DNA of 64,000 bases, from NCBI RefSeq assembly GCF_048403405.1, contig NZ_CP183129.1; one strand, given 5' to 3'. Positions 1-3,000 of the stretch are shown piece by piece. Origin of the DNA: Escherichia coli (GTDB taxonomy: Bacteria; Pseudomonadota; Gammaproteobacteria; Enterobacterales; Enterobacteriaceae). The position numbers are program-made. Position 1 is the first letter of the stretch. Each line of letters begins with the position of its first letter.

Positions 1-3000
1 CTACAAAATTGTGGGTACTGGTTACCATAGCGTGAATACATATCTGAACAAAATTTTTCAATACAGGAACATTCACACCTTTTTCCCTGACAATGCAGTA
101 GTTGTCGTAAATGTGACGTACCAGAAACTCATCATCCTGTTGTTCGGGATTACGAAGATGTGCTGCTGTTCTTCGCATCATGGAGATGAGCTTTTCAGCC
201 TGAGTGGATAAAATGGTGGCACAGGGGAATGCTGTTACAGGTGTACCTTTACCCGTTAACTCCGTGACAAGGGAATAAATATCTCTGCTTTCCGGATGTT
301 CCAGCAGAGTGCTTTCCATCAACTCCAGCTTAATAAATGGACGAAGACAGGGGACTTGTGCAAATGTCTGGGGATAACGTACCGAGATTTCGTTATAACG
401 ATACTCATCACGTGTTATACGGGCGTTTTCATTATCCAAGCTGAAAATGTCAGAATTATGAATAACATCCGTGATTATTTGCACGATTTCCTTGCGAATT
501 TTTCTTCTCTTGTCTCTGCCATTTTGCATAAAGTTCTCTGTTGGCACGAGCTTTATATCAATATCTTCTGACATTCTGTTTAGCGAGATACCTGCTTTTG
601 ATAATGCGGTACCTCCTGCAAACACGAGAGTATGTGTTTCTGGTTTTATTTCTTTTAATAATCTTAAAAGATCAACCACAAAATAATCTTTTTCGACGAT
701 AGCGACAGATTCAATATCCAGTGCATCGGCAACGTCAGGAAATAATGATGTTAATTCAGGCATTGATTTTACTTTTCCCTACTATTAACACTCTTTTAAA
801 TCGAGAAGGTGTTTTTATCCCCAGAGATACAGGAATTTGTGTGGACTGACCTTTATTGTAGCATTCCGTTGCTCCTGCCAGACGGTATCTGATATTCAGG
901 CGCTCCAGGGCCTCTGTAATTACTGCAGCAGAGCCCCCAGGCGCTGCGGGCATGATTTTCCCAGTGATGATGTTACGACGGGCTTTGGTGTAAACACCAT
1001 AGCCCACTTTCATCAACTTACCTTCGTTTACCAGTGTACGAAGAGCTCTGCCAACCTGATCATAGCCAGCGATATCCCTGAAATCATCCCGGGTGAACAC
1101 ATAACGTTTTGAACGGTTCAGTCGGGACTGAATACGGTCTTTTGTAGTCATGTTTCCTCCGAAAAATTTTCACAATGATAGCAAAAATATGACATGTTTA
1201 ATAGCGGGGCAAGGCCACATTACCTGTCTGCTAATACATTTGGATAGTGCCTGGCAATTATGTCATTTAGCCTGTCAACCAGTTCTGGTTTCCTGAACGT
1301 GATGTGTGCGGAGCCCTTCTTAAAGTATCTGATGCTGAACATTTCGTCTTCATAGCGCTCTTTACCCTGAACGGACTGGATGTGACCATCCAGACGAATA
1401 GTGATGTTTTCCCGGTTGTCGGGAATCGGTTTGTCGCTGAACAGATGTAGCATTCTTTCCAGATCGGCGAGTCGGTCAGTCTGTTGTCCGGTGATAAGAT
1501 GAAATCTCCACCGGTCCCATCTCACCAGATTGTTGATAATGATTTTACTTCCAAATTTACAGGGAGAGTTGGTTTTATAATTCCAGCTCAGTCCCCTGAA
1601 GACGTTGATCACTCCCCGCTCAAACACCTCATCCTTGTTCTGGTGCAGTTGTTTAAATGTGCTCAGAATGTTCGCTTCGCTGATTTCCGGAAAATTATCG
1701 TACTCCAGTGACCGGTACCATGTATCACGGGCCTGCGCATCCATTAAGGAAAGCATCCTGGAACGTTGCATCAGGTCACGCCAGATTTCACGGTCAAGGT
1801 TGCGGGTGATGGCTTTCATTGCCGTTTCAGGTTTCTCCATGAGCCAGCAGCCGCAGCGAAAATCCTGTTTCATGGCCCAGTCCCGGGTGGTTTTACCTCC
1901 AATGCTTTCCGTCAGAACTGAGATTTCAGCCAGTTGCCGGATAAGTGTGTCGATTTGCAGCAGTGTACTTTTTCGTACAGCCAGAATGTGGTGGATACTG
2001 GTTGAGCAGATAACTTCCGTATGCCCGTTGACCACTTCCGGACGGGAGGCTGTGATATCAGACATAATCGATATTTATATGAACGCATCCCGTTTGCAAA
2101 GGCATCCATTGTTCTGACATCGACGGTAGGTTGCAGCTTTATATCCGGCTTTATTGCAGCCCGGAAGCTGCGAGCCCCTATGTAATTCGCCGACTCACGC
2201 CTCATTTCCTCTGCGGGCTTTAGGCCCAATCGATTATCCAGGTTTAGTGAGTCACGGTCTTACCTGTCTTTGTCATCACGCTGGCTGCCAGAGCAACCTT
2301 TCTGCATTCACCCTTTTGTAAAGAGTTTATGTTTATCGGTATCAGCGATTAATCAGGCCTGATACTGACATGATTTTTGTCGTATTTACGTCCGTGAGCG
2401 GCTATTGCCCACACCGTTCGCGCCAGCTTGTTTGCCATTGCGACGATTGCCACGCTGGCCGGACGACGCTTTTTCAGTTCGGTTATCCATGGACCAGGTT
2501 CTTTGGTCAGTAATGCTGCCGCCCTTGCACCATGAATAAACAGGGTTCGCAGATATTTATCACCACGTTTGCTTATTCCCAGCAGGCGGATTTTTCCTCC
2601 TGAGCCTGTCTGTCTGGGCACCAGACCGATAAACGCGGCGAATTCCCGTCCCGACTTAAAGGCGGAGGCGTCTCCCATCGTGGCAACGGCAGCGGTGGCG
2701 ATTAACGGCCCCACGCCTGGGATGTTCAGTAACCGCTGACAGGTTTCATTCTGTCTGGCTATCGCCTGCAACTGCTTCTCAATGTGGTCAAGATGTTCAT
2801 CAAGTTCAGTAATTCGCTGATATTGTTCATCCAGCATGTTTATCAGGTAGAGCGGTAGCCGCTCCTTCAGACGCTCCAGGGCTTCCGGCACCTCCTTCGC
2901 CAAAGCAGCACGCCCCTTGTGCGTCGTTTCACCAAATTCCAGCAAGAGACTGTGAAGCGCGTTTATCTGTGCTGTCCTGAACTTCACCAGTTGCTGGCGC

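What the first reader, a model, noticed from the sequence alone, without database searches (positions are those of the whole stretch)
1..2065. AbiE-like toxin-antitoxin pair with an unknown co-oriented 281-aa gene: possible three-gene defence cassette
The antitoxin-like ORF (756..1151) and the nucleotidyltransferase toxin ORF (763..1) overlap in the classic ATGCCTGA arrangement, which implies translational coupling. A 281-aa protein of no family I can place sits 68 bp upstream on the same strand and nothing else intervenes before the IS110 insertion. The toxin ORF is missing from the supplied ORF track because it runs off the window edge.
Basis: partly seen in the sequence, partly recalled or inferred. 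Interest (0 to 1): 0.5.

Follow-up and report, generated by a model that had tools for sequence, protein, structure and literature searches.

The report
Decayed AbiE toxin-antitoxin pair, unrelated neighbour
This is an already described two-gene AbiE toxin-antitoxin module at the end of an E. coli pathogenicity island whose toxin gene is broken by a 13-bp deletion, and the 281-aa neighbour is an ordinary island gene (DUF4942), not a third defence component.

Summary
The window is E. coli, 100% identical to ATCC 25922, in a pheV-type pathogenicity island next to the kps capsule genes.

The pair is a bona fide AbiE module (PADLOC AbiEi 4e-52, AbiEii 4e-97; Pfam PF08843). The toxin has a 13-bp deletion at window 32/33. 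This replaces the last 72 of 315 residues, including 15 invariant positions and about 60 positions of the Pfam domain. PGAP calls it a frameshifted pseudogene. About 92% of E. coli copies carry this deletion or a 14-bp one.

The 281-aa protein is DUF4942 (4e-67). It is the terminal gene of the conserved CP4-like island module that carries CbeA-CbtA. It occurs at 7,778 places in E. coli, against 687 for AbiE.

AbiE pairs occur intact without DUF4942 in 34 other species loci, and beside mere DUF4942 stubs in others. They carry their own conserved repeat/promoter region. So the three-gene cassette is not supported.

The same locus (CFT073 c3681-c3682) was published in 2025. Ordinary and already known; low interest.

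The parts
1..763 (-). 5' 763 nt of abiEii (DUF1814/PF08843 nucleotidyltransferase toxin). The gene continues past the window start; the full product of this allele is 305 aa (243 native residues plus 62 out-of-frame).
   Evidence: PADLOC AbiEii 4.2e-97. Pfam AbiEii 6e-27, but only model positions 1-177 of 238. The product is identical to P0014, seen on 1000 or more contigs. PGAP: 'frameshifted'.
32..33 (-). Junction of a 13-bp deletion (ACAGGATATTGAA in intact alleles) that shifts the toxin frame after residue 243.
   Evidence: Alignment with the intact alleles of ETEC4085 (315 aa) and HM670. Only 49 of 648 E. coli genomes keep the undeleted stretch. All 15 invariant residues downstream of the junction are lost.
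756..1151 (-). abiEi antitoxin/regulator, short 131-aa DUF6088-type; intact.
   Evidence: PADLOC AbiEi 4.1e-52 over 1-130 of a 131-position model. Pfam DUF6088 1e-8 and AbiEi_4 1e-4. A 131-aa homologue sits directly upstream of every AbiEii relative found.
756..763 (-). 8-nt ATGCCTGA overlap of the abiEi stop and the abiEii start (translational coupling inferred).
   Evidence: Read directly from the sequence. The same 8-nt overlap is seen in loci L009-L015.
1152..1219 (-). 68-nt spacer holding the module's own expression signals. SD GGAGG at 1160..1156. TGC-TATCAT extended -10-like element at about 1183..1175. One recognisable copy of the family's 15-nt repeat (TGTCATATTTTTGCT, 1194..1180). 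The upstream repeat position (1219..1203) is degenerate.
   Evidence: A spacer alignment of 24 loci shows the conserved direct repeat TGTCGTATGTTTGCT twice, plus TGcTATGAT and GGAGG, in loci with and without DUF4942. The simple sigma-70 scan found nothing here.
1220..2065 (-). DUF4942 gene (281 aa). It is the last gene of the conserved CP4-like island module and not part of the AbiE module.
   Evidence: Pfam DUF4942 4.1e-67; no PADLOC hit. Synteny DUF932-antirestriction-RadC/JAB-DUF987-CbeA-CbtA-DUF5983-DUF957-DUF4942. 7,778 places in 3,978 E. coli genomes.
2071..3504 (-). IS110-family insertion sequence of about 1.43 kb (transposase 2349..3368). It sits in the DUF957-DUF4942 spacer, within about 14 nt upstream of the DUF4942 start codon. 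Boundaries are approximate.
   Evidence: Comparison with the uninterrupted Nissle spacer. PGAP annotation. PHROG transposase 1e-96. Found at 99% identity or more in only 68 records.

Best explanation
The region is the distal end of a CP4-44/CP4-57-like integrative island, the pheV-type pathogenicity island next to the kps capsule cluster of ExPEC E. coli. It holds two independent things.

(1) A self-contained two-gene AbiE module. AbiEi is a short winged-helix DUF6088-type antitoxin/regulator. AbiEii is a DUF1814 nucleotidyltransferase toxin of the MenT type. In intact relatives the module would work as AbiE/MenT systems do: AbiEi represses the operon at the two 15-nt repeats over the promoter and neutralises the toxin, and a freed AbiEii nucleotidylates tRNA 3' ends and stops translation. 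The result is abortive infection and/or post-segregational stabilisation of the island. These mechanistic steps are inferred from the family; none was shown here.

In this window the toxin is broken by a 13-bp deletion at 32/33. The deletion removes the C-terminal helical quarter of the domain. The module is therefore most likely a decaying remnant: an intact antitoxin beside an inactivated or crippled toxin, hitch-hiking with the capsule/PAI region.

(2) DUF4942, the terminal gene of the island's conserved accessory module (DUF932, antirestriction KlcA-like, RadC/JAB, DUF987, CbeA, CbtA, DUF5983, DUF957, DUF4942). Its function is unknown. Some relatives are fused to a SAM-methyltransferase domain, so a DNA-modification or anti-restriction-related role is the best guess. 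It sits beside AbiE only because AbiE is cargo at that island end. In this strain an IS110-family element has also landed just upstream of its start codon.
For: Identity and context: the window is 100% identical to E. coli ATCC 25922, and PGAP annotates the toxin as 'frameshifted'.

Family: PADLOC AbiEi 4e-52 and AbiEii 4e-97; Pfam. The AF2 model of the intact toxin is closest to MenT4 (6y56, E 1e-5, TM 0.60/0.64) and to MenT3/TglT (6j7p).

Broken toxin:
- The 13-bp deletion is mapped at window 32/33 against 315-aa intact alleles.
- The Pfam match stops at model position 177 of 238, against 236 of 238 in the intact protein.
- All 15 family-invariant residues after residue 243 are lost.
- The lost part is 4-5 confidently modelled helices.
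- Only 49 of 648 E. coli genomes keep the undeleted stretch.
- Other lesions exist: the 14-bp deletion allele of Nissle (246 aa) and a premature stop in HM670.

Independence of DUF4942:
- DUF4942 occurs at 7,778 places in 3,978 genomes; AbiE occurs at 687 places in 674 genomes.
- In six sampled AbiE-less contexts DUF4942 is the last gene after DUF957, followed by the island boundary. This includes the same kpsF/IS110-remnant locus without AbiE.
- Of 48 species-level AbiEii loci, all have AbiEi. Eleven of the 21 loci L016-L036 (almost all Enterobacterales) have DUF4942 or a 3' stub of it. None of the 27 loci L037-L063 (mostly Alteromonadales, Oceanospirillales and Burkholderiales) has any.
- Intact toxins sit next to DUF4942 stubs of 32-115 aa (L010, L017, L019, L026, L032).
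- The repeat/promoter/SD block is conserved with and without DUF4942, and homology in DUF4942-less loci starts at repeat 1.
- ATCC 25922 and Nissle are about 100% identical from 600 nt beyond the window start (in L001) through the AbiE pair to about window 1279, but 86-93% identical across the rest of DUF4942.

Literature: AbiE is a two-gene bicistronic type IV TA/Abi system (PMC3985639). MenT toxins modify tRNA acceptor stems (PMC7450476, PMC10435456). AbiE stabilises an ICE in S. suis (PMC11062541).
Against: All 79 invariant residues of the first 243 aa are intact, including the GG[ST]...ExDxD nucleotidyltransferase motif. The 305-aa allele is very widespread. So the truncated protein might keep some activity.

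McGarry et al. 2025 (PMC12488582) report altered phage susceptibility after deleting c3681-c3682 in CFT073. From the stated length (1,306 bp = 396 + 918 - 8) I infer that locus is this same 305-aa allele. The effects appear mainly in a capsule-less background, go in both directions, and I found no mention of complementation.

DUF4942-AbiE adjacency recurs across divergent Enterobacterales with a conserved spacing of about 77 nt. I found no terminator between the two genes, so read-through co-transcription cannot be excluded. The promoter assignment in the spacer is by eye; the consensus scan found none.
Confidence: 0.8

Rival explanations
1. Three-gene defence cassette: DUF4942 is a functional third component (sensor, modulator or effector) of the AbiE module, co-transcribed with it.
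For: The three genes are on the same strand with a 68-nt gap, and no terminator was found between DUF4942 and abiEi. DUF4942 or its 3' remnant lies directly upstream of abiEi in 11 of the 21 loci L016-L036 by tblastn/HMM, plus short traces visible in 3 more. The same is true of a divergent E. coli island (toxin 67% identical) and of Yersinia ruckeri. The spacing of about 77 nt is conserved.
Against: About 91% of DUF4942 places in E. coli have no AbiE. DUF4942 always follows the CbtA/DUF957 module and marks the island end. 34 of the 48 species loci have an intact AbiE pair with no detectable DUF4942 within 6 kb. Several intact pairs sit next to DUF4942 stubs of 32-115 aa, so the pair persists after DUF4942 is destroyed. 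The pair has its own conserved repeat/promoter/SD block. There is a recombination breakpoint inside the DUF4942 3' end. DUF4942 has no PADLOC model hit. Experimentally characterised AbiE systems are two-gene (PMC3985639, PMC7725324).
Confidence: 0.04
2. The pair is a working two-gene AbiE defence/TA system despite the frameshift. The 243 native residues carry the catalytic core, and the 305-aa protein remains an active toxin.
For: All 79 invariant residues upstream of the deletion are conserved. The allele is fixed in large successful lineages (PMC12488582 reports ST131 and ST73). The antitoxin is kept intact in every copy examined. Deleting the locus in CFT073 changed plaque counts for some BASEL phages (PMC12488582).
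Against: The frameshift removes 72 residues that hold 15 invariant positions and about a quarter of the Pfam AbiEii domain. These residues form 4-5 confidently predicted helices of the C-terminal domain. At least three different lesions occur in E. coli: 13-bp deletion, 14-bp deletion giving 246 aa, and a premature stop. That is the pattern of relaxed or negative selection on the toxin. PGAP flags it as a pseudogene. The published phenotypes are small, bidirectional, mostly visible only without capsule, and confounded by the reported co-transcription with kps.
Confidence: 0.2

Closest known systems
CFT073 c3681-c3682 AbiEi/AbiEii locus upstream of kpsF (McGarry, Toner-Bartelds & Smith 2025, Front Microbiol, PMC12488582)
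   Same: Same locus and position, between the PAI end and kpsF with an IS110 remnant in between. It is conserved in more than 500 ExPEC genomes. The reported 1,306-bp size equals 396 + 918 - 8, which I take to mean the same 305-aa toxin allele as in this window.
   Different: A term search of the paper's main text found no 'frameshift', 'truncat', 'pseudogene' or 'DUF', so it appears not to discuss the frameshift or DUF4942, and it treats the system as functional. This window additionally has an IS110-family insertion upstream of DUF4942 that is present in only about 68 records.
AbiE of Lactococcus pNP40 / Streptococcus agalactiae (Dy et al. 2014, PMC3985639)
   Same: Bicistronic overlapping abiEi-abiEii; DUF1814/PF08843 nucleotidyltransferase toxin; HTH antitoxin; repeats in the promoter region of relatives.
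   Different: The antitoxin here is a 131-aa DUF6088-type protein rather than the longer two-domain AbiEi. The candidate operator is a direct repeat (15 nt twice, period 23), not the inverted repeats described for S. agalactiae (PMC7319586), and it is degenerate in the E. coli lineage. The toxin here is frameshifted.
MenT3/MenT4 nucleotidyltransferase toxins of M. tuberculosis (PDB 6j7p, 6y56; PMC7450476, PMC10435456)
   Same: Closest solved folds to the intact E. coli AbiEii model (E about 1e-5, TM about 0.6). The likely shared chemistry is nucleotide addition to tRNA 3' ends (inferred).
   Different: Only 11-16% sequence identity. The antitoxin type differs. No biochemical data exist for the enterobacterial clade studied here.
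CP4-44 / CP4-57 / CP4-6-type integrative islands of E. coli carrying CbtA-CbeA (YeeV-YeeU) type IV TA modules
   Same: DUF4942 sits at the end of the same conserved gene string (DUF932, antirestriction, RadC/JAB, DUF987, CbeA, CbtA, DUF5983, DUF957) in every E. coli context examined.
   Different: Only about 9% of such island ends in E. coli carry the extra AbiE pair after DUF4942.

Membership tests
AbiE (type IV TA / abortive infection) | Toxin of the DUF1814 / Pfam PF08843 AbiEii nucleotidyltransferase family | tested here: met
   PADLOC AbiEii 4.2e-97; Pfam AbiEii 6e-27. The intact allele gives 4e-30 over model positions 9-236 of 238. Its fold is closest to MenT4/MenT3.
AbiE (type IV TA / abortive infection) | Pol-beta-type NTase catalytic motif (hGG[ST] ... 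[DE]h[DE]h) and downstream conserved K/R and D motifs present | tested here: met
   FAGGTALSKAGISLNRMSEDIDI at residues 48-70, and EKLISMMRR / RHIYD further on. All 79 subfamily-invariant residues within residues 1-243 are retained. The assignment to the published motifs I-IV is by eye, from memory of Dy et al. 2014.
AbiE (type IV TA / abortive infection) | Complete toxin open reading frame | tested here: not met
   A 13-bp deletion at window 32/33 replaces the last 72 of 315 residues with 62 out-of-frame residues. The Pfam domain is truncated at position 177 of 238. PGAP pseudogene.
AbiE (type IV TA / abortive infection) | AbiEi-type HTH antitoxin encoded immediately upstream, in a bicistronic (overlapping) arrangement | tested here: met
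   PADLOC AbiEi 4.1e-52; Pfam DUF6088 and AbiEi_4. The 8-nt overlap is present. The arrangement is conserved in all 48 species loci.
AbiE (type IV TA / abortive infection) | Autoregulation through antitoxin binding to repeats in the promoter | tested here: inconclusive
   Relatives carry two perfect or near-perfect 15-nt direct repeats over an extended -10-like element. In the window only one repeat is recognisable, with 2 mismatches. Binding was not tested.
AbiE (type IV TA / abortive infection) | Toxicity neutralised by the antitoxin; abortive-infection phenotype | not testable with these tools
   The only data are the CFT073 deletion phenotypes in PMC12488582, which are modest and bidirectional.
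Hypothetical three-gene DUF4942-AbiEi-AbiEii cassette | The three genes co-occur as a unit across genomes | tested here: not met
   E. coli has 7,778 DUF4942 places and 687 AbiE places. 34 of 48 species loci have AbiE without detectable DUF4942, and 4 of the 48 (plus Y. ruckeri L010) have only DUF4942 stubs. A recombination breakpoint lies between them.
Pfam DUF4942 (PF13708) | Significant full-length match to the family HMM | tested here: met
CP4-like island accessory module (CbtA/CbeA islands) | Conserved gene order ending DUF5983-DUF957-DUF4942 at the island boundary | tested here: met
   Seen in ATCC 25922, Nissle, HM670, ETEC4085, BL21-AI, strain 9000, BL12, M160133, the ST69 strain (NZ_CP102488.1), SCEC020026 and CRE444.

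The most novel reading that the evidence does not exclude
The recurrent DUF4942-AbiE junction in Enterobacterales (conserved spacing of about 77 nt, 3' DUF4942 stubs travelling with intact AbiE pairs, and a recombination breakpoint inside the DUF4942 3' end) is more than co-inheritance. Either the 3' end of DUF4942 serves as a homologous-recombination anchor through which CP4-like islands swap terminal defence or addiction cargo, or DUF4942 read-through transcription or its protein modulates AbiE.
Probability: 0.07. Interest if true: 0.45.

Novelty: already known. Interest (0 to 1): 0.13.

Why it matters
There is little new biology here. The AbiE family, this subfamily (it has its own PADLOC models) and this very locus (CFT073 c3681-c3682) are all described, and DUF4942 is a standard island gene.

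The useful by-product is a caution. About 12% of complete E. coli genomes carry this pair, and automated defence-system finders are likely to count it as an AbiE system, because the frameshifted gene still gives a 305-aa or 246-aa ORF that hits the AbiEii model. Yet about 92% of the copies lack the conserved C-terminal quarter of the toxin. A term search of the published functional study found no mention of this. Phage-defence inventories of ExPEC, and interpretation of the CFT073 deletion phenotypes, should take it into account.

Tried and rejected
- NCBIfam gave no hit for any of the three proteins.
- Sequence searches of the PDB with the DUF4942 and AbiEii profiles gave only chance matches.
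- The only functional lead is weak: its match to the N-terminal part of PHROG 6263 'DNA methyltransferase', and a 468-aa relative that fuses DUF4942 to an MTS methyltransferase domain. The window protein has no methyltransferase domain.
- The consensus promoter/terminator scan found no sigma-70 site in the spacer and no terminator between DUF4942 and abiEi. The repeat finder found no inverted repeat there. The promoter/operator proposal rests on cross-species conservation instead.
- Rfam found no RNA family in window 1-4000.
- Literature searches for DUF4942 and DUF6088 found only incidental mentions.
- A junction-specific 60-nt search could not separate the 13-bp and 14-bp deletion alleles cleanly. 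I therefore report only the combined figure.
- I considered that the open frame in the window means an intact toxin. I rejected this after aligning it to 315-aa alleles.
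Full report
**Where the window comes from.**
Window bases 1-2350 are 100% identical to several E. coli chromosomes, including ATCC 25922. I fetched the ATCC 25922 region with 12 kb flanks as locus L001, where window base x equals L001 base x + 12000. The window start lies inside a gene that NCBI's PGAP pipeline annotates as 'nucleotidyl transferase AbiEii/AbiGii toxin family protein, frameshifted'. Beyond it are an IS110 remnant and the capsule genes kpsF, kpsE and so on. The rest of the window is a pheV-type pathogenicity island carrying Ag43, aerobactin iuc/iutA, sat, iha and many IS66 copies.

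**Checking the observation.**
- The ORF list gives 756..1151 (-) at 131 aa and 1220..2065 (-) at 281 aa.
- Translation of 763..2 (-) is open for 254 codons and starts MPELTSLF.
- The sequence reads ...AAA ATC AAT GCC TGA for the antitoxin end and ATG CCT GAA for the toxin start. That is the 8-nt ATGCCTGA overlap.
- The spacer between the DUF4942 stop and the abiEi start is 68 nt.
- Nothing else is annotated before the IS110-family element.

So the description is accurate.

**What the three proteins are.**
- PADLOC models hit the toxin (AbiEii, 4.2e-97) and the antitoxin (AbiEi, 4.1e-52, end to end on a 131-position model). The 281-aa protein has no PADLOC hit.
- Pfam gives DUF6088 (1e-8) and AbiEi_4 (1e-4) for the antitoxin.
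- Pfam gives DUF4942, 4.1e-67 and full length, for the 281-aa protein.
- Pfam gives AbiEii for the toxin.
- NCBIfam has no model for any of them.
- An AlphaFold2 model of an intact E. coli allele (pLDDT 83.8) is closest to the M. tuberculosis toxins MenT4 (6y56, E 1e-5, TM 0.60/0.64) and MenT3/TglT (6j7p).
- These DUF1814 nucleotidyltransferases add nucleotides to tRNA acceptor stems (PMC7450476, PMC10435456). Serratia AbiE toxins are proposed to act the same way (PMC7725324).

**The toxin is broken.**
Intact alleles exist in E. coli: ETEC4085 has 315 aa, and HM670 has 297 aa because of a late TGG-to-TAG change. An alignment shows that the window allele lacks 13 bp (ACAGGATATTGAA) between window bases 33 and 32. 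Nissle lacks 14 bp at the same place.

The window allele therefore encodes 243 native residues followed by 62 out-of-frame residues. This 305-aa product is identical to cluster P0014, seen on at least 1,000 contigs. The Nissle allele gives 246 aa.

In an alignment of 18 full-length relatives from Enterobacterales (56-75% identity), 94 columns are invariant. The window allele keeps all 79 that lie before the deletion and loses all 15 that lie after it. Pfam AbiEii matches model positions 9-236 of 238 in the intact protein but only 1-177 in the window allele. The lost part forms four to five confidently modelled helices.

A 63-nt probe across the undeleted sequence is fully present in only 49 of the 648 E. 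coli genomes that have the locus. The other roughly 92% match only up to the deletion point. Several different lesions at one gene, together with an always-intact antitoxin, is the usual picture of a decaying toxin-antitoxin module. I cannot exclude residual activity of the 243-residue core.

**Is DUF4942 a third component? The E. coli evidence.**
- The DUF4942 gene alone matches 7,778 places in 3,978 of 5,426 complete genomes, with a median of two per genome.
- The AbiE pair matches 687 places in 674 genomes.
- Nearly every E. coli AbiE pair does sit next to a DUF4942: 651 against 654 records with near-full coverage. But these copies are almost all one locus, at 99% identity or more.
- In every context I opened, DUF4942 is the last gene of the string DUF932 - antirestriction - RadC/JAB - DUF987 - (hypothetical) - CbeA/YeeU - CbtA - DUF5983 - DUF957 - DUF4942.
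- In six contexts without AbiE the next thing after DUF4942 is the island edge: a tRNA-Ser, integrase or rhuM remnants, or, in strain M160133, the very same IS110-remnant/kpsF junction with no AbiE pair.
- ATCC 25922 and Nissle are about 100% identical from 600 nt beyond the window start (in L001), through the AbiE pair, the spacer and the last ~60 nt of DUF4942. They are only 86-93% identical over the rest of DUF4942. The two parts have separate histories.

**Is DUF4942 a third component? The evidence from other species.**
A protein search found full-length (about 316 aa) relatives of the toxin across Enterobacterales. I looked at neighbours and then scanned one genome per species with the toxin alignment, which gave 48 loci.

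- Every locus has a 131-aa AbiEi homologue directly upstream.
- By tblastn and by an HMM built from 62 diverse family members, DUF4942 is present as a full gene upstream of abiEi in seven of the 21 loci L016-L036 (frameshifted in L023; about 0.5 kb away in L016). These loci are almost all Enterobacterales.
- It is present as a 3' stub of 32-115 aa in four more of those 21 loci. Three others show even shorter traces in the spacer alignment.
- It is absent from the remaining loci in that group and from all 27 loci L037-L063, which are mostly Alteromonadales, Oceanospirillales and Burkholderiales.
- Wherever a full DUF4942 is present, CbtA is just upstream of it.
- Intact toxins sit beside destroyed DUF4942 genes, for example in Yersinia ruckeri L010, where an IS has left 52 codons.

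So the adjacency is real and recurrent in Enterobacterales. It is the adjacency of a cargo module to the last core gene of one kind of island. Each part exists without the other.

**The pair's own control region.**
Aligning the 160 nt upstream of abiEi from 24 loci shows a conserved block: TGTCGTATGTTTGCT, then 8 nt, then TGTCGTATGTTTGCT running into TGcTATGAT (an extended -10-like element), and about 15 nt later GGAGG and the ATG. The block is present whether or not DUF4942 lies upstream. In DUF4942-less loci, similarity begins at the first repeat. This is the expected place for an AbiEi operator, because autoregulation is known for S. agalactiae and M. tuberculosis AbiEi through inverted repeats (PMC7319586). 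Here the repeats are direct.

In the E. coli pheV lineage, including the allele with an intact toxin, the first repeat is unrecognisable and the second has 2-4 mismatches. The simple consensus scan found neither a promoter in the spacer nor a terminator between DUF4942 and abiEi. Read-through from DUF4942 therefore cannot be excluded.

**What DUF4942 might be.**
The family is large: 2,066 clusters at 50% identity. The AlphaFold2 model is confident (pLDDT 88, pTM 0.80) and consists of a helical N-terminal part and an alpha/beta C-terminal part. It has no significant neighbour among solved structures and no sequence relative in the PDB. It matches PHROG families of unknown function, and it matches the N-terminal part of a PHROG annotated 'DNA methyltransferase'. 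A 468-aa relative fuses DUF4942 to an MTS methyltransferase domain. Together with its neighbours (antirestriction, RadC), this hints at a DNA-modification or anti-restriction-related accessory role. That is only a guess.

**The IS element.**
Comparison with the uninterrupted Nissle spacer places an IS110-family element of about 1.43 kb at roughly 2071..3504. It ends within about 14 nt of the DUF4942 start codon and displaces the AGGA ribosome-binding site seen in Nissle. It has 13-nt terminal inverted repeats, is about 78% identical to ISEc11-type elements, and occurs at 99% identity or more in only 68 records.

**Literature.**
McGarry et al. 2025 (PMC12488582) describe this locus in CFT073 as c3681-c3682. 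[quoted passage not shown] Deleting it changes plating of some BASEL phages, mainly in a capsule-less background and in both directions. The stated length of 1,306 bp equals 396 + 918 - 8, from which I infer the 305-aa frameshifted allele. A term search of the main text found no 'frameshift', 'truncat', 'pseudogene' or 'DUF'. Hochhauser et al. 2023 list AbiEii at three E. coli hotspots (PMC10121019). AbiE also stabilises an ICE in S. suis (PMC11062541, abstract seen), which fits an island-maintenance role.

**Verdict.**
But the toxin is a common frameshifted allele, and the '281-aa unknown' is DUF4942, the terminal core gene of CP4-like islands. The three-gene cassette idea is not supported. 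The locus is annotated and published, so I rate it already known and of low interest.

Noticed in passing
window 2071-3504 (transposase 2349..3368, -): IS110-family element with 13-nt terminal inverted repeats (ATGAACGCATCCC at 2079-2091, GGGATGCGTTCAT at 3489-3501) and about 280 nt of non-coding DNA at the end 3' of the transposase. Some records annotate it 'IS110 family RNA-guided transposase'. It is about 78% identical to ISEc11 and occurs at 99% identity or more in only 68 E. coli records. It sits just upstream of the DUF4942 start codon and displaces the AGGA ribosome-binding site seen in Nissle. Rfam found no RNA family in it.
   Followed up: partly
window 3525-3551 (- strand): Terminator-like hairpin (GCCAGCC-7 nt-GGCTGGC, then GTTTTC) right after the DUF957 stop and before DUF4942. 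It is also present in Nissle. DUF4942 may therefore be expressed only by read-through or from a promoter I did not find.
   Followed up: no
L012/L013 2705-4951; L010 3380-4951; L016-L036: In several species the AbiE pair is accompanied only by the last 30-115 codons of DUF4942. In E. coli a recombination breakpoint lies about 60 nt inside the DUF4942 3' end (about window 1280). This suggests that the DUF4942 3' end acts as a flank for homologous exchange of the terminal cargo.
   Followed up: partly
spacers upstream of abiEi in L009-L036 (e.g. L012 3540-3612): Two 15-nt direct repeats, TGTCGTATGTTTGCT (period 23), overlap an extended -10-like TGcTATGAT. They are conserved across enterobacterial loci and two metagenome-assembled genomes (L034, L052). 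This is a candidate AbiEi operator made of direct rather than inverted repeats. It is degenerate in the E. coli pheV lineage.
   Followed up: partly
L003 (HM670) 9967-10611 and 10914-11391; L001 20907-23425; L067 3482-4323: Many genes of these CP4-like islands are themselves pseudogenes in individual strains: the 214-aa 'antitoxin of TA stability system' gene, the JAB/RadC gene, a large hypothetical gene, and DUF4942 itself in CRE444. The whole island end is decaying, not just abiEii.
   Followed up: no
window 14350-64000 (L064): The rest of the window is a typical UPEC pheV pathogenicity island: Ag43, a second sialic-acid (nan-like) cluster, aerobactin iucABCD-iutA, sat, iha, hha, an inovirus Gp2-family gene and at least five IS66-family copies, several of them frameshifted.
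   Followed up: no
P0200, P0206, P0225 (467-468 aa relatives of DUF4942): Three long family members (467-468 aa). The one scanned, P0206, carries DUF4942 fused to a C-terminal MTS-type SAM methyltransferase domain. PHROG 6263 ('DNA methyltransferase') has DUF4942 at its N-terminal part. This is the only functional hint for this large family of unknown function.
   Followed up: partly
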